Source of the DNA: Lingula anatina | Lineage: Eukaryota > Animalia > Brachiopoda | Length of the DNA stretch: 64,000 bases | Direction: 5' to 3' | Assembly: GCA_051362555.1 (NCBI GenBank) | Contig: CM120640.1 | Coordinates: 24,290,225 to 24,354,224, forward strand | Shown: positions 26,861 to 52,274 of the stretch, piece after piece | How the letters are laid out: each line of letters opens with the position of its first letter | How positions within the stretch are numbered: the first letter of the stretch is position 1 | Made by a program: the position numbers and the translations under genes | Notes under the pieces: model-generated | What the model saw: only the letters and a program-made list of their open reading frames with translations | Told to the model about the DNA's origin: nothing | The model's database searches: none

Positions 26861-29800
26861 ATGGCATCAAGGAGTGAAAGAGACAAGCAGAAAGCTCTCC
26901 AAGAGAGACATCAAGCGATTTTGTCTGGCCTGTTGAAAGATGACGACAACAAGTATTGTGTAGACTGTGATGCTAAAGGTGAGCCGGTAAAATTAGGGGG
27001 TGTTTTCAAGTGTTGTCTGTTGACAGATTAGTTTTATTACTCGGTTCAGTCAGTGCCAGTAATGTTGTGAATCTTATCTTGCCCTTTTTGTCAAATAAAA
27101 TTTTATCGGAGAAAGGCATGTCACATAATCAAAGTACAACCAAAATATCACTGTTTACATAAAGACAAAATTAAAAAAAAAAAAACTCTTCCTCAGGCTC
27201 TGTGTGTTGCTTTATGTCCAGTCATCATGAGGTTGACCTTAGGGTGCCTTATTTATAAATAAGTCTAAACTAATAATATATCTGCTATCTTCTTTCTTAC
27301 TAGCCTGGTTAGTCTGCACATTTAGTTTACATGTACTTATTTTTATTCTTCATATTTCAGGACCACGATGGGCCTCTTGGAATATAGGTGTATTTCTCTG
27401 CATTCGCTGTGCTGGAATCCATAGGAATTTAGGTGTTCACATTTCAAAAGTGAAATCAGTTAATTTAGACACATGGACACCAGAGCAAATTGCTGTGAGT
27501 ATATTAAAGTAAAATCCATGAAGATGTTTGGAGTTGTCTTTTGAGATAAAGAATTCAGTTATATTCGGTTATGTGTACAGGAAAATTAAGATGATAAAAT
27601 GTATACTCTTAACAGGTATTACAATTCTGTAAGTACTTGGCCATCTTTGTATTTTTAGTCAAATTAGTTTTGATAATATATTAACCTCAGATGATGCAGG
27701 AGATGGGGAATAGCAGAGGACGAGCTGTCTATGAAGCATATCTGCCTGATAATTTCAGAAGACCACAGACCGACTCGTATCCTTGCCTTGTGCTTATTAG
27801 AGTTTTGTAGTAAAATATATTTAAAATATGCAGTGTACTATTATTCATAGCTGGTTGTAAGTTCATGTCTGCCAATTCCAGAATAAATGTTTCATTATTC
27901 TAAATTATTTTGTACTGTAAATAGAAGCTTTTGTCTTATTTGAAAACTTTGTAGAAGCATTAGTCTATTTTTTTCTGTTTACATTTTGATTTTGTACTAC
28001 AGAACTTTGCTTTGAATTTCATTTACCTCAACTTTGAGACCATTGGAAATTCTGATAAGGCAAAAGTATGAACAGAAGAAATATATGGCTAAAGAATTTG
28101 TTCCCCCAGTTATTAAGATACCAGTAAGTTGTTGGGTGTATCATGCATGGACTTTTCAAAAAATGTTTAATGTTGTTCATATGTAAACGCATACTGGGGT
28201 AGTGCTAGCAGTTTTTTTCACGTAGCCAAATCACCACTTTTTTGTCAATTTCTTATCCAAATGGTTATAATTTGACCTTTTTGTTTAGCCAATTTAAGTC
28301 AGTTTTAGCATTCGGCTAAATTGGCAAGTGTTAGCGCTACCCCAGGCATATATTTGCTGCATGATCTTGCTGTGAATTATACATCATACTTTGAGTTGGA
28401 ATGCCATATGTTATGTTGTATAGAAATGTTTTTTGTGAAGTACTATCCCATTGGCACATATTTTTTGTTTTATATATATGTGTTTATTGTTCCCTAACTC
28501 ACTTTTACACAGTCCTTTAGAACATTTTATACGGGATAAGTATGAGAGGAAAAAATACATGGCCAAAGAATGGGTGCCCCCTCGGCCTGCATTTTCAGTT
28601 TCGGTAAGTGGTTTCTTTGAAAAGGCATATCTTTAAAACTAAGACTTCTTTAAAAAGGGCAGTGTGTTGTTTTTTAAAAAAATCACCAATTTTTCAGGTG
28701 CATGTGCATTTTTATTTTTTGTTTTTGATTTTATTTTGATTTTTGGCAGTGCTTTGTGTTTTCTTTTCTTTTTTTATTTGTTTAGAATATTGCTTTTCAA
28801 TAGCTACCTGTTGTTCACTGTTCAATGGATTTTTCTGTATTGATTGTTTTTTCTTTTTATGGTTTAACATGTGTATTAAATTTTTATTCAAGGTTTCTTG
28901 AAATCTTTTTTACTATCCAATGTCTAAAACATGGATTCAGACTTTTGATACAATGTCAAACAAATTATCGAAAATATTTCCAAATTTTTTTGTGTTATTT
29001 TTTGATAAAGCTTCACAAGAAGAATCACAATTCAATATTGATTTTCATTACTAGGATGTTTCAGGATTTGCATTAAGAGTATAATTAAGGTTTAAAAGCT
29101 ATCATTTTGGGAAGTTTTCTCAATTGTATTTTAAGTCATTCAATTAAGTGATTAATTCTATTTGTTTTCAGGCTGTTGAAGATGAGAACAAGAAGAAGAA
29201 AGAAAGGCCTAAACCTAAAGCAAATCCAGTGCAGTTAAATGCTGTAAGTATAAATGCATGCAAAATGTTTGTAATCTTTGTGGAATGATCATCTATTCAT
29301 ACTCTTAGAGTCAGTAAACTTGGTTGTTTTGCCCAAGAATATTTCATCACATTGAAATAAGCACTTTTTTATAGTTTCTCAAATATGTATTTCTCCATCT
29401 AAGAAGATATTGGGGTAAAATTAAGATGATCCCATGATACAAAATACTCTCCATTTATTTTTACTCTATCAAGTCAATTTTTATTTCAGACCGCAAGGCC
29501 AAATAGTAGTGCCAAACCTGCAGGTGCAGTGATGACAAATGGAGAGGTTTCTGCTGCCAAGCAAGAACCACCAAAGGCAAAACAAGCCTCTAATACTGAT
29601 GACTTATTAGGTTTAGGTAGGGCATCTTCATCTAATGTAACTCATAGTTTACTTTATTGAAGTCTTTTTGCTTCGAATTTTTTCTTGGCATGATGTTAGA
29701 AAAGAAGAGATGATGGACATTTGAATTATTTGTGTGACCCTTTTTTTCCCCAGATACACCTTCAGCTCCAGCATCATCCTCGAGTTCTGATCTCTTTGGT

Positions 29801-48222: not shown

Positions 48223-50592
48223 AGGCAGGTCATCACCACATTGTCCATAAGTGCCATTTCACATAGGGTTTAAGCCAACAATGTCACAATCTGGGCATTT
48301 TATTGGTAGGAGGGAATATTCTACTTTATGCCATTACATGCACATGGGATAAGTTGCTTTAGGTTCTTGTTTGCTTGATTTCATGAAATTCAATTTATTT
48401 TTTAAGAACTGTTTTTGCTTCTGTCTTCTTCTATTAATTTCATCATGTATTTTGTTTCGCAATCCATGAAATCCTGTTATACAGTGCATCAGAAGTAATA
48501 TTTTTTATTTAATTTTTAATATGATTATGATCTCAGGTAAAAGAAATACCCCCCCCCCCCTCCTCACTGAAAGAAGTTTGTTACATGTCATTGAAAGAAT
48601 TAATTTGGACCAAAGACCCTCATAAATGGAAGTTACAGATTTTATCATTATAATTGCATGAATATATATATATATATATATAGTAACATTTTCCTGTGTC
48701 TTTGTGTGTAACAACTGTAGTATTCCAAGCTAAATTTTTATCAATATAATAGATATGAACCTGTTAAACAGAAAACGCCCCATCTTTGGTTTAAAACCAG
48801 CATGTTTGTGTAATCAGGCACAGTTCATTCACAATTGTACTTGAGCAGTGATAAAAATGTATATACATATCCATTCTGCATGTAAGGGCTGTGATATATT
48901 GAAAGAGGGTCCCAAATCAAGAATTTGAAGACCAGATAAGGCAGCATTTATGCCAGATAGATGACTTCTGTAAGAAACATAGACAATTTAGTAGCGTTTT
49001 TTTTTTTTTTTTTTTTTTTTGTCTGGCCATATTCTGATCAACCATCTGCTTTTATTTATTAATTTTTTTGGGGTAATTGCTTGATAGGAAAGTATATTTA
49101 TTACAGTATAGAAATTATGTTGTGTTAAACAGAGTTGATATTGGCATTATTTTCATGTTGTAAATATTTTCTTTATTTTGAGTGACGAATGGAGGGATGG
49201 ACCTTTTGCAATTGCACAAATGTAACCTAGCCAATTATTTATTATGTTTCACATTAAGTTTATTTGTATATTTTTAAAGTTAAACTGTGAACATGGGGCA
49301 TTTTAATCTCCCAACAGTCTAATTCATTATGGGGTAATTATATTCACTTATTGACATTAAACAAATTCATTTGTAGCAAGCATTTCCATTGGCCTTATTA
49401 TATGCACATTCCAAAGTTAAGATTTATCTTTTTTTGGGAGGTTAAATATATTCATAGCTTTACATCAAGCACCATTCTTGAAAAGGGGCATTTATATGTA
49501 TAGACTTAGAAGTTAGATGTTAATTATGCTATAATATTTTGTGACTAGACTTTTGTGATGCTTAGAATAAAAGTAGAATTTTGGTGATTTTGCCTCAAAA
49601 TACATCCCTTTTGGATTTTGCACTACAGTGGTTTACATTATCAATAAATCTTGTGTAGTGCAGAATCGTCCATAATGATCTGCTTAATATGCCTTGCATA
49701 AAGATTAATTTGTTTTGTTTAGAGGAATAAAGTAAAAACAATTGTGGTTGTACATTATTTAAACATTTCAGTTAGGTGGTTTATATTTATATATATAATT
49801 TTTAATATATTTTGAAACGGCTGGTTTTGTGGTGCATTTCATTGAAAATTATATTAAGGTGTAAACTGCATAAAGTTACGAGGTGGTCGTTTTCTCAAAT
49901 TTGTTCACAGATCCACCAGATGTCAAAACCAGAGTTTTAGTTCAATTTCTATATGTGTAACCTGTATTGGCTATTTTATGAAAAAATACTTGCAGTTTCA
50001 CTGATTATAAATGTTTTCAATGATTGCTCTGTAAAAATGCTGGCCATTGTTTCTTATAGAAACTATGTAAAAATAAATATATTAAATAAAGATATGGTTT
50101 TTATTTTCATGAAAGAAATGGAACTAAAAATGAATCATTCAGTTTCACGTTAAGTCCAATTGCCAGTCATTCAATACCTTTTCACCACATCTCAGTTTTT
50201 GTTCTTTCACAAAAAATGTAACATGTCATAAGTCCTGATATGGACAAGCCTTAACCTGGCTTCATATCTCTCTACATTAATATATTACTGATGCCATTTA
50301 TGACTACCTCTAAAGTATGTTCTCCCACTTGAAGAAAAACTCCATGATCACTTAATTTTACTACCTCCGGACATAGGGCTGAACTGAGAGATTAACCCGT
50401 GCATACCTGGAGATCATTAGCAAACACTATTTTGGAGTGAGCAGATGTGTAAAAAGTTTTTCTCTCTGAATTATCAAGCAGTCATAGAAAACAACTTTAG
50501 ACAGATAAGCAGCCCAAAAAAATCGAAAACAACTCTGTGCTATGCAGGCAATTGGGAGGAGGAGATAATTATTGAGCACTCAGCATTCAAAG

Positions 50593-52274
50593 CTATTCTG
50601 TCACATTGACTGTCCAGTTATCAGTCACTACCCTTGTCAGTCCAGCCCCATAATAATCTATCACATAGTGGGAGCCATCTGATGGGCCCACCACCTGGGC
50701 AGCTATAAGGATGATGTCTATTAACTGTCCTATAAACATGAAGCCCAATGTGCAGAACTTGAGTAAACCTGGAAAGCCAAGAGAATCTTTGCTTTTAGTG
50801 ATTTGTTAACCAAATATTGAACAGGAAATGGATATTGACGAAAGATGGGATACACATTTTGAGATTTAGTGAATATTTCAGTGCGTAAAGGAAGTGTCAT
50901 AACAGCCTCCATACTTTTGTTAAATTACAACAGGCTGCAATCATATATTGTTTGCAGTATACTGCATGCATGATACTAGTGGTGCCTCCATAACTAAATG
51001 TTCAACTTCTCAAAAATACAAATTTACCTATGGCTGGATATCCAAGATAGAATCTATCAATCCCAAACATCCCAAGAAATATTGATAGAAGCAAAGAGAC
51101 TTCAAAGGAATATCCGTTCCTATAAAAATCCAAAGCAAAAAGCATTACATCATTCTTTTTTAATGAAGAACACCGATTTGAACTTAAATTCCATTATAAA
51201 TATTATTTAATTAGTATTTTGAAAATCTTGAAAGGTCAATGACAAAAAAGAAAATTAATCACAAAAATAATAATATCAAATGAAAAATTAAAATTAATAA
51301 CAAAGACTGCCCTTCCAACTAGAAGAGCACACATACTTACGTCCACTTACAAGGCACCTTCATTTTGAAGCCCACAGTAGAACCATTGTGTCTCATCACA
51401 GCATTGCTTGTACATGTCTCATCTATACAACCTTCACATTCAATATCTGGTGCTGGCATGCAACTGACTAGAATATAAAATGTAGAACAATTTAGCAATA
51501 ACAATAACTTCTGAGCCATTGGACTAGTGAAACTGAACAAATATAAATATTCTGGACCCATGAACCATTTTACCATTATATCAAATAAAGCAATACTTCA
51601 CTACTCTTACCATCTATTAACTGGTTTTCTTTGGTACAGCCTCTTGCTTGTTGGGTGTCTGGATCTATCTCAGGCTCTTTGCATTTATATCTGTGTTTCA
51701 TCAAAGAAAAATGTACTATTTTTATGTATTGAAATATGAATGTATTGATATCATATGTATAAATGCCAGACTCCTAGTACTAATAAAGCTAACATGTATT
51801 AATGAATTGCACATTTGCCTCTGACCCATAAAGGAAGATTAAATAATCTCTCTCGTGTATGTTTTGACTTATATCAGTCATTTTTTGTGACTTTTTTCTT
51901 TCTAAAACTTTACCATACACTCATATACACTTTATACACTTATTAGCACAAGGATCAGACTAACAGGAGGATGTTTCCCCAAGACTTGTGTTCCAATAGC
52001 ACAACGGTGCATATTTCATACATGCAGATAAGAGTGCTAGAGTGGGATTACGCAGACTATCAAGCCTCCTGTTAAATAATTACTCCAGGTATATCCTAGT
52101 TTGAGCCTCAGGTAAAACAAATTGTAAATTAATTTATTCTGGGTGTATTAGATTTATAATACATAAAGGATACTGTCCTTTCAGAAGATCTGAGCAGTGC
52201 TTTGTACATAAAGAACCAGGTAGTGCTAGAGTAACAAGCACATACCACCATAATACAGCCGAATGTGTATTCAT
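50593..52274 (-). CDS. TM2D1: TM2 domain-containing protein 1 (beta-amyloid binding protein-like), ~191 aa
   Basis: Exons 52274-52174, 51690-51611, 51467-51341, 51119-51028, 50768-50593 join in frame. They give a signal peptide, CSDLLKGQYKCKEPEID, VSCMPAPDIEC, and a TM2 domain NGYSFEVSLLLSIFLGMFGIDRFYLGYPAIGLLKFCTLG...AQVVGPSDGSHYVIDYYG. Confidence 0.95.
51691..52173 (-). other. U12-type GT-AG intron in TM2D1
   Basis: Minus-strand donor GTATCCTTT at 52173. A branch-like TTCTTTGAT lies about 10 nt before ACAG, with no polypyrimidine tract in between. Confidence 0.85.

What the first reader, a model, noticed from the sequence alone, without database searches (positions are those of the whole stretch)
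27777..29171. SMAP duplicated exons 4a/4b made mutually exclusive by U12/U2 spliceosome incompatibility
Seen: exon 3 ends at a U12 donor (GTATCCTT). Two homologous exons follow, each preceded by a U12-like branch site (TACCTCAAC, 7/9 match to TTCCTTAAC; TTCCCTAAC, 8/9) and each followed by a U2 donor (GTAAGT). The segment between them is therefore a U2-donor/U12-acceptor hybrid. Skipping both would pair a U12 donor with a U2 acceptor, and including both frameshifts. Known: this architecture is described for vertebrate JNK genes and is considered rare; I know of no report for SMAP. The isoforms differ in the last ArfGAP helix (LIRQKYEQ versus FIRDKYER). Caveat: the 4a branch-to-AG distance is short (~8 nt) and its acceptor is GAG.
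Basis: partly seen in the sequence, partly recalled or inferred. Interest (0 to 1): 0.85.

Follow-up and report, generated by a model that had tools for sequence, protein, structure and literature searches.

The report
Minor-intron-locked twin exons in brachiopod SMAP
A lamp-shell gene for a membrane-traffic regulator (SMAP) carries two intact, diverged copies of one exon; RNA reads show either copy joined to the next exon and none joining the two, likely because a rare minor-type intron feeds both copies, which makes this a new case of a known but uncommon splicing switch.

Summary
Real, and expressed. Exon 3 of a SMAP ArfGAP gene (its 4b form matches a protein labelled Lingula anatina) ends at a U12 donor also listed for human SMAP1/2. 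Two homologous exons follow (4a 85 nt, 4b 91 nt), each with a U12-like branch site and a U2 donor. In 8 RNA runs, 4b-to-exon-5 has 260 reads, 4a-to-exon-5 14 (5 runs); no 4a-4b or skip-both joint is listed. The exon-3-to-4a joint was never listed (3-read threshold), but five reads begin exactly at 28039. Synonymous divergence 0.75 against nonsynonymous 0.15 argues against a dead copy. Correction: JNK and TMEM87 have the opposite polarity; the like-for-like precedent appears to be human MAPK14. In this polarity the barrier is softer, because U12-type 3' ends are sometimes used by the major spliceosome, and both wrong products carry premature stops, so decay is not excluded. Likely mechanism: one U12 donor chooses between a weak (4a) and a strong (4b) U12 acceptor, with decay as backup. 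No SMAP case turned up in my literature searches. This scan noted the same kind of layout before in other genes and genomes (p38, ZDHHC14, RPB5, PLCbeta4). New member of a known kind.

The parts
26861..26978 (+). SMAP coding exon 1 (ATG to U2 donor)
   Evidence: matches P0015; read loose ends before 27359 are exon-1 sequence
27361..27494 (+). exon 2, ArfGAP core
   Evidence: joint 27494^27691 in all 4 runs; 100% identical to P0015
27691..27776 (+). exon 3, ends in phase 2 inside the Ser codon of QTDS
27777..27785 (+). U12-type 5' splice site GTATCCTTG, preceded by TC (not AG)
   Evidence: sequence; used in reads; same position listed as a minor intron in human and mouse SMAP1/SMAP2; U12 donor also in L078, L079
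27798..27812 (+). 5' arm of a predicted 15-bp stem (pairs with 27995-28009) that would bring the U12 donor near the 4a acceptor; lead only
   Evidence: -17.6 kcal/mol, 1 of 40 shuffles as strong, best of 6 region pairs tested; no covariation data
27995..28009 (+). 3' arm of the same predicted stem
28018..28032 (+). 4a U12-like branch region: TACCTCAAC (28024-28032, A's at -9/-8, has the CC) overlapping TTCATTTAC (28018-28026, A at -14, lacks the CC)
   Evidence: which A branches is untested
28036..28038 (+). 4a acceptor GAG
   Evidence: coverage starts exactly at 28039 in 3 reads of X7 and 2 of X8 with none upstream (arithmetic)
28039..28123 (+). exon 4a, 85 nt, minor form
   Evidence: joint 28123^29172: 14 reads in 5 of 8 runs
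28124..28512 (+). hybrid segment: U2 donor GTAAGT at 28124, U12-like 3' end; 389 nt
   Evidence: sequence; no joint across it listed in 8 runs
28144..28149 (+). TGCATG (Rbfox-type motif, recalled) 21 nt into the segment after 4a; further copies at 28358 and 28699; lead only
   Evidence: 3 found in 957 nt, 0.54 expected, P about 0.017, post hoc
28194..28345 (.). 152-bp MITE-like insertion, 20-bp terminal inverted repeats, flanked by a 5-bp direct repeat GCATA
   Evidence: (fold z -5.9); high read depth on both strands with many different flanks
28490..28498 (+). 4b U12-like branch site TTCCCTAAC (A's at -17/-16)
   Evidence: the same 9-mer occurs 6 times in the human/mouse minor-intron branch table of PMC6717393
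28513..28603 (+). exon 4b, 91 nt, default form; followed by U2 donor GTAAGT at 28604
   Evidence: joints into and out of it in all 8 runs; form present in P0015
29172..29243 (+). exon 5, U2-type acceptor without a U12-like branch site (best match 5/9)

Best explanation
Exons 4a and 4b are an intact tandem duplicate of the exon that lies behind the U12 intron of SMAP, each is spliced to exon 5 on its own, and they are likely kept apart mainly because the single U12 donor must pick one of two U12-type acceptors while the U2 donor of 4a is predicted to pass over the U12-type acceptor of 4b, with nonsense-mediated decay as a likely backup. Steps: (1, shown) the duplication copied the exon together with its branch site and its downstream GTAAGT donor. 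(2, shown in reads) 4b is the default; 4a is used in about 13% of exits to exon 5 in two studies and in none in a third. (3, inferred) the U12 donor cannot reach exon 5, whose acceptor has no U12 branch site, so at least one copy is included. (4, inferred) 4a is the weaker U12 acceptor (7/9 branch site, A only 8-9 nt from a GAG), so it needs help; a donor-proximal stem and Rbfox-type motifs are candidates. (5, inferred, the softest step) once 4a is chosen, its U2 donor goes to exon 5 because the 4b 3' end is a poor U2 site. (6, shown by frame, effect inferred) leaks either way carry premature stops. The product is two SMAP proteins that differ at 5 of 23 residues in and just after the last ArfGAP helix and in a short tail.
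For: U12 donor with a non-AG exon end, at the position of the listed minor intron of human and mouse SMAP1/2 (exon ends TCA and CCC fit QTDQ and QIDP). The donor is U12-type in 2 of the 7 fetched loci (of 80) that have an intron at this position. Both branch candidates carry the two C's and the C after the A's that PMC11347168 links to minor-spliceosome recruitment; 0 of 6 other acceptors scanned do. Reads: 4a to exon 5, 14 reads from 12 starts in 5 of 8 runs; 4b to exon 5, 260; exon 3 to 4b in all 8 runs. Depth arithmetic leaves no room for further spliced reads leaving 4a in X4, X5, X7 and almost none in X6, X8, so 14 of 14 go to exon 5 and 0 to the nearer 4b (upper 95% bound about 20%). Use of a GAG acceptor 8-9 nt from the branch A fits U12 better than U2 (2% of major against 27% of minor branch points lie within 15 nt of the 3' site, PMC9636908). 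pS 0.75 against pN 0.15, P = 9e-5. Steric block is excluded: 373 nt from 4a donor to 4b branch A against the under-50-nt rule.
Against: The joint 27776^28039 was not listed in any of 8 runs; what lies upstream of the five reads that start at 28039 was not shown. The 4a spacing is below the 11-13 nt optimum (PMC3584512), and its exact 9-mer occurs 0 times in the minor-intron branch table. The 4b 3' end is pyrimidine-rich (9 of 12, like the U2 acceptors of this gene), contains CTAAC and ends in CAG, so it could serve the major spliceosome; shared 3' ends are documented. All runs are steady-state RNA, so decay could hide 4a+4b products. Only 14 reads support 4a. No relative with both exons was found, so conservation of the pair is not shown.
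Confidence: 0.6

Rival explanations
1. Decay does the work: the major spliceosome joins 4a to 4b fairly often, because the 4b 3' end is dual-type, and the frameshifted product (stop at 28537) is removed by NMD. Exclusivity is then only apparent.
For: 85+91 nt is not a multiple of 3. Dual-type 3' sites exist. 4b has a usable pyrimidine tract and CAG. PolyA or steady-state libraries only.
Against: 0 of 14 spliced exits from 4a go to the nearer 4b; decay would have to be very efficient (inference; NMD strength in this animal is unknown). PMC10853781 calls dual-type 3' sites rare among authentic U12 sites.
Confidence: 0.2
2. RNA structure or a splicing factor sets the choice and the exclusivity, and intron class is incidental: a donor-proximal stem or Rbfox-type motifs switch on 4a and mask 4b.
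For: A 15-bp stem 27798-27812/27995-28009 (1 of 40 shuffles); three TGCATG motifs (P about 0.017, post hoc); 4a use differs between studies (0 of 168 against 14 of 106).
Against: No competing partner for 4b: donor-proximal region against the 4b upstream region, 6 of 40 shuffles as strong; intron 3 against the 4b region, 37 of 40; both downstream pairings are at chance (16 and 22 of 40). One hit in six tests is weak. No covariation data. These elements may tune the ratio without making the lock.
Confidence: 0.12
3. 4a is a fading duplicate that is spliced in only by leak and makes no useful protein.
For: Weak acceptor; absent from 168 reads of the two deepest runs; absent from the annotated protein (P0015) and from all 208 homologues with the motif; it changes F (206 of 208) to L and W (201 of 208) to F.
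Against: Open frame and both splice sites intact despite synonymous saturation (pS 0.75, pN 0.15; 11 of 19 differences at third positions). 11-17% use in two independent studies. The one 4a variant listed in reads (28102, X7, 3 of 3) is synonymous. The changes are conservative, and L at that position occurs in P0073.
Confidence: 0.08

Closest known systems
Human MAPK14 (p38 alpha) 80-nt mutually exclusive exon pair behind a U12 donor
   Same: Same polarity: a GT-AG U12 donor in front of two homologous exons whose length is not a multiple of 3. Basis: the pair is listed as annotated MXE, frame 1-0, peptides starting HIDQ/HINQ (PMC5740500 supplement), and the MAPK14 minor donor is ACC|GTATCCTTT (PMC6717393 supplement), which fits the Asp-His junction in phase 1. 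Joining the two tables is my inference.
   Different: Different gene and phylum; independent duplication. I did not see the MAPK14 branch sites for both exons, and found no paper stating that pair is locked by spliceosome class; it may be among the five clusters of an appendix I could not read.
Vertebrate JNK (MAPK8/9/10) exons 6a/6b
   Same: Tandem homologous exons, one hybrid U2/U12 segment between them, one default and one restricted isoform (PMC1874599).
   Different: Mirror image: JNK duplicated the exon upstream of the U12 intron, so its hybrid has a U12 5' site and a U2 3' end and the competition is between U2 acceptors. Here the competition is between two U12 acceptors and the hybrid has a U2 5' site.
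TMEM87A/B exons 11/11a
   Same: Mutually exclusive exons around a minor intron, no 11-11a reads, tissue-dependent (PMC6717393; PMC8329584).
   Different: JNK polarity; both exons 72 nt in mouse, so no frameshift backup.
Human and mouse SMAP1/SMAP2 minor intron
   Same: Same gene family, same intron position and phase, U12-type.
   Different: Single exon downstream: 'SMAP' has 0 hits in the human MXE table of PMC5740500 and Smap1/2 have 0 hits in the alternative-splicing table (file 6) of PMC6717393.

Membership tests
SMAP subfamily of ArfGAPs | N-terminal ArfGap domain closest to SMAP1/SMAP2 | tested here: met
   PF01412 at residues 20-131 of P0015; best solved structures are SMAP1 and SMAP2 chains, E 4e-62 and 6e-58
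U12-type (minor) intron, GT-AG subtype | 5' site RTATCCTT without AG at -2/-1 | tested here: met
   TC|GTATCCTTG, used in reads; criterion from PMC10853781
U12-type (minor) intron, GT-AG subtype | U12 branch site close to the 3' site, for 4b | tested here: met
   8/9, A at -17/-16; background 5 of 3591 AGs
U12-type (minor) intron, GT-AG subtype | U12 branch site at a workable distance, for 4a | tested here: inconclusive
   7/9 at -9/-8, or 7/9 without CC at -14; optimum 11-13 nt; papers on the minimum distance were not held
U12-type (minor) intron, GT-AG subtype | Splicing depends on U11/U12/U6atac | not testable with these tools
   needs knockdown or lariat mapping; the species is reported as rich in minor introns (PMC10639083)
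MXE by U2/U12 spliceosome incompatibility | Two homologous exons, each in frame alone | tested here: met
MXE by U2/U12 spliceosome incompatibility | Each exon found alone in mRNA | tested here: met
   4b by both joints; 4a by its 3' joint (14 reads) and a 5' coverage edge at 28039; the upstream joint itself was not listed
MXE by U2/U12 spliceosome incompatibility | No joint inclusion and no double skipping | tested here: met
   0 of 14 exits from 4a go to 4b (upper bound about 20%); no 27776^29172 joint listed in 8 runs, listing threshold 3 reads
MXE by U2/U12 spliceosome incompatibility | Intervening segment has ends of different class | tested here: met
   GTAAGT donor, TTCCCTAAC branch; by sequence only
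MXE by U2/U12 spliceosome incompatibility | Exclusivity persists without NMD | not testable with these tools
   steady-state RNA only
JNK/TMEM87-type interlocked introns | Hybrid has a U12 5' site and a U2 3' end | tested here: not met
   opposite polarity
MXE by steric interference | Donor-to-branch distance under 50 nt | tested here: not met
   373 nt (28124 to 28497); rule from PMC5740500
MXE by competing RNA pairings | One docking site with a selector at each exon | tested here: inconclusive
   one candidate stem for 4a, none for 4b; no comparative sequence
Dead duplicate (pseudo-exon) | Loss of frame, splice sites or coding constraint | tested here: not met
   pS 0.75, pN 0.15; spliced in 5 of 8 runs

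The most novel reading that the evidence does not exclude
A tissue-regulated switch made purely by competition between two U12 acceptors: the minor spliceosome uses a GAG acceptor only 8-9 nt from its branch A, below the reported optimum, when a donor-proximal RNA stem and Rbfox-type motifs favour it, and the U2-donor/U12-acceptor hybrid blocks double inclusion without any need for decay. It would show that duplicating the exon downstream of an old minor intron yields a ready-made, regulated either-or switch, here with two ArfGAP helices.
Probability: 0.25. Interest if true: 0.65.

Novelty: new member of a known kind. Interest (0 to 1): 0.46.

Why it matters
Exclusive splicing through U2/U12 incompatibility is rare in print (five of the human MXE clusters, 0.79%, in PMC5740500), and the worked examples (JNK, TMEM87) have the other polarity. 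This locus is a compact (1.4 kb), read-supported invertebrate case in which two U12 acceptors compete. It would allow a direct test of whether a U12-type 3' end alone bars the major spliceosome, and how close a U12 branch site may sit to its AG. It also shows that annotation misses such isoforms: the annotated protein holds only 4b. With the scan's other unchecked cases it suggests that exons next to minor introns are repeatedly duplicated into either-or pairs. The functional effect on SMAP is probably modest and is untested.

Tried and rejected
No whole genome is held for this window, so no species-specific U12 matrix or intronIC-type score could be built. The three other GTATCCTT matches in the window (16491+, 40603-, 52173-) do not look like exon ends in the frames I read, so they gave no in-species control for branch spacing. 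No RNA holder was listed by the index; raw-read runs with the same species label were laid instead. A protein search with the 4a frame gave 2 candidates, none scored (weak evidence). Isoform sets of 10 clusters (molluscs and arthropods; 39 members read) show one exon-4 type per species among those that carry the motif; annotation can miss such forms, as it does here. Of 80 metagenome loci, 69 had one exon-4 match and none had two; many are transcripts or lack the intron. The AlphaFold model of the 4b form is poor (mean pLDDT 47.7); it puts a helix at residues 114-125, at pLDDT 40-50, which I treat as weak. Steric interference and JNK polarity were rejected (see membership test). Flanking introns of the two copies are barely alike (P about 0.06 each). 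Three primary papers on U12 branch spacing were not held. The appendix of PMC5740500 that names the five human clusters, and its table s003, could not be read; they may bear on whether this polarity is already listed. Earlier notes of this scan hold nothing on SMAP by words or by sequence.

Full report
WHAT THE LOCUS IS. The window holds a SMAP-family ArfGAP gene on the + strand from 26861. Exon 2 is 100% identical to P0015, a protein that its sources label stromal membrane-associated protein 1-like of Lingula anatina. P0015 carries the 4b form; it differs from the window by LA for FS in exon 4b, the same allele that reads show at 28594-28595. The ArfGap domain spans residues 20-131, so exon 4 encodes its last 17 residues and a short tail. 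The best solved structures are SMAP1 and SMAP2.

OBSERVATION. Exon 3 ends TC|GTATCCTTG at 27776/27777. Exon 4a (28039-28123, 85 nt) follows TACCTCAAC and GAG. Exon 4b (28513-28603, 91 nt) follows TTCCCTAAC and CAG. Both end at GTAAGT. Either exon alone keeps the frame through exon 6; both give a stop at 28537, neither a stop at 29236. Branch-like matches of this quality 8-21 nt before an AG are uncommon in the window (8/9 or better: 5 of 3591 plus-strand AGs; 7/9 or better: 38 of 3591), and 0 of 6 other acceptors of the gene reach 7/9; two of those six windows were set one base too far, which does not change the best match.

THE U12 INTRON IS OLD. Human and mouse SMAP1 and SMAP2 are listed as minor-intron genes with donors TCA|GTATCCTTT and CCC|GTATCTTTT (supplement rows of PMC6717393). 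These exon ends fit QTDQ and QIDP, which align with QTDS here; the match of position is my inference from that. Among 80 metagenome loci (best 80 of 165 relatives), 7 have an intron at this position: 2 with a U12 donor (L078, L079) and 5 with a U2-type donor. L078 has a U12-like branch 13-14 nt before its AG and a single exon 4. One mollusc isoform (P0217) reads TDSYPC, the translation of the same donor.

RNA EVIDENCE. Eight of 9 listed runs, from 3 coded studies, were laid; 6-30% of each was read. Exon 3 to 4b is seen in all 8, partly split by an allele near the exon end. 4b to exon 5: X1 86, X3 82, X4 15, X5 6, X6 14, X7 17, X8 24, X9 16 (260). 4a to exon 5: 0, 0, 3, 2, 2, 3, 4, 0 (14 reads, 12 starts). 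No 4a-4b joint and no exon-3-to-5 joint is listed; the tool lists a joint only from 3 reads in a run. Bin depths tighten this. In X4, X5 and X7 the depth over the last 14 nt of 4a equals 14 nt times the number of 4a-to-5 reads (one extra base in X7), and X6 and X8 leave little room, so 14 of 14 spliced exits go to exon 5 (upper 95% bound for 4a-4b about 20%). The exon-3-to-4a joint was not listed in any run. What supports it: in X7 the bin 28029-28109 holds 71 and 142 nt, exactly one and two passes from 28039; in X8 the bin 28039-28092 is exactly 2.00 and the bin before it 0; X9 has one 24-nt piece inside 28039-28092 that is best read as the short side of a joint from upstream. The upstream partner itself was not displayed. 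X9 also has three unspliced reads across 27985-28470. 4a use is 0 of 168 in study P1, 7 of 42 in P2 and 7 of 64 in P3 (P about 1e-6 on reads; at sample level 0 of 2 against 5 of 6). X4 shows window-type alleles in exons 3, 4a and 4b and still uses 4a, so tissue or stage is more likely than genotype, but labels are hidden.

4a IS NOT DEAD. Over 23 aligned codons pS is 0.75 (saturated) and pN 0.15 (P = 9e-5); flanking introns are barely alike. The one listed 4a variant is synonymous. Against: 4a has L where 206 of 208 homologues have F and F where 201 of 208 have W (208 of 247 fetched proteins carry the motif), so it is the derived copy. No 4a-type protein was found, no fetched locus has two copies, and isoform sets from 10 clusters show one exon-4 type. 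No other named brachiopod or phoronid was among the listed hits, and the annotation misses 4a even here, so the age and spread of the pair are open.

HOW IT LIKELY WORKS. One U12 donor faces two U12-type acceptors. Both branch candidates have the two C's and the following C that PMC11347168 links to minor-spliceosome use (passages). 4b is the better site and the default. 4a is weak: 7/9, A's at -9/-8 against an optimum of 11-13 nt (PMC3584512, passages), GAG, and its 9-mer is absent from the minor-intron table in which the 4b 9-mer occurs 6 times; an overlapping site at -14 may be the one used. Skipping both would need the U12 donor to join exon 5, which has no U12 branch site; I rate that barrier strong. 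Including both would need the U2 donor of 4a to use the 4b 3' end; that barrier is softer. U2 donors do reach U12-type 3' ends in WDFY1 mutants (PMC1874599, parts 2-3 of 5 read), CENATAC and MAPK12 (PMC8329584, section 7 read), and DRAM2, PFDN5, KANSL2 (PMC10853781, abstract and section 16, which calls such sites rare). The 4b tract is 9 of 12 pyrimidines. Since both wrong products have premature stops, decay may hide leaks. That 0 of 14 exits take the nearer acceptor still favours a block at the splicing step (inference). Steric interference is excluded. A 15-bp stem near the donor and the 4a acceptor (1 of 40 shuffles, best of 6 tests) and three TGCATG motifs (the Rbfox label is recalled) are leads for what turns 4a on, not findings.

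COMPARISON WITH WHAT IS KNOWN. The mechanism class is established and uncommon: PMC6071210 (passages) names it, and PMC5740500 (passages) counts five human clusters. So this polarity very probably exists in a human gene; I saw no paper that says so (searches; passages of PMC8883539). No SMAP case appeared in the listings, nor among 'SMAP' look-ups in PMC5740500 (text and 10 supplements), PMC8034651, PMC10639083, PMC2831892 and PMC9741552 (passage searches). The library lacks most subscription journals, and the appendix naming the five human clusters could not be read. PMC9636908 was seen as passages. The scan's own unchecked notes report similar layouts in arthropod p38 and RPB5, octopus ZDHHC14 and PLCbeta4, and an annelid gene, none in SMAP.

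VERDICT. The feature is real, both exons are used and no joint inclusion is seen. The lock by spliceosome class is the most likely cause (0.6) but is not separated from decay. It is a new gene and phylum for a known, rare switch, in the less studied polarity. Interest 0.46.

Noticed in passing
window 28194-28345: MITE-like element (152 bp, 20-bp inverted ends, 5-bp flanking repeat GCATA, strong hairpin) inside the hybrid segment; its family is abundant in RNA reads on both strands. One copy in the window. Superfamily not determined.
   Followed up: partly
window 27777-27935 and 27985-28470: Low-level unspliced reads start at the U12 donor in X7 and X9, and three X9 reads run unspliced through exon 4a; the two U2 introns upstream and downstream (27495-27690, 29244-29489) show none. 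Fits slower minor-intron removal; counts are tiny.
   Followed up: no
runs X7-X9 against window exons 2-5: Study P3 shows many near-fixed exonic differences from the window (e.g. 27384, 27756, 28534, 28594-28595, 29183), so it may be a distinct population under the same species label; it still uses exon 4a.
   Followed up: no
L042, L046, L051, L053 (donor GTATGT) and L065 (donor GTAACA) at the exon 3/4 position: Apparent U12-to-U2 conversions of the SMAP minor intron in other animals; several other genomic loci lack the intron.
   Followed up: partly
proteins P0154, P0161, P0172, P0177, P0178, P0182, P0186, P0191, P0192, P0211, P0217: 11 homologues have 1-3 extra residues exactly at the exon 3/4 junction, suggesting shifted or alternative splice sites around this minor intron in molluscs and a priapulid; P0217 reads through the donor.
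   Followed up: partly
P0073 (Darwinula stevensoni): Only one of 208 homologues with L in place of the conserved F (LEMLIR), resembling 4a (LEILIR); could be convergence or a hint of an alternative exon in that ostracod.
   Followed up: no
P0015: The annotated protein stops at residue 299, apparently by reading through the donor near window 30017, whereas the window holds further Q/G/M-rich exons to about 31840; the annotation looks truncated.
   Followed up: no
L055-L058, upstream of the exon-4-like match: CCTTGAC or similar words lie about 20 nt before an acceptor in these more distant ArfGAP loci; possible U12 branch sites, not checked.
   Followed up: no
window about 50590-51700, minus strand: Exons of what looks by eye like a TM2-domain membrane-protein gene (label recalled, no search run).
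   Followed up: no
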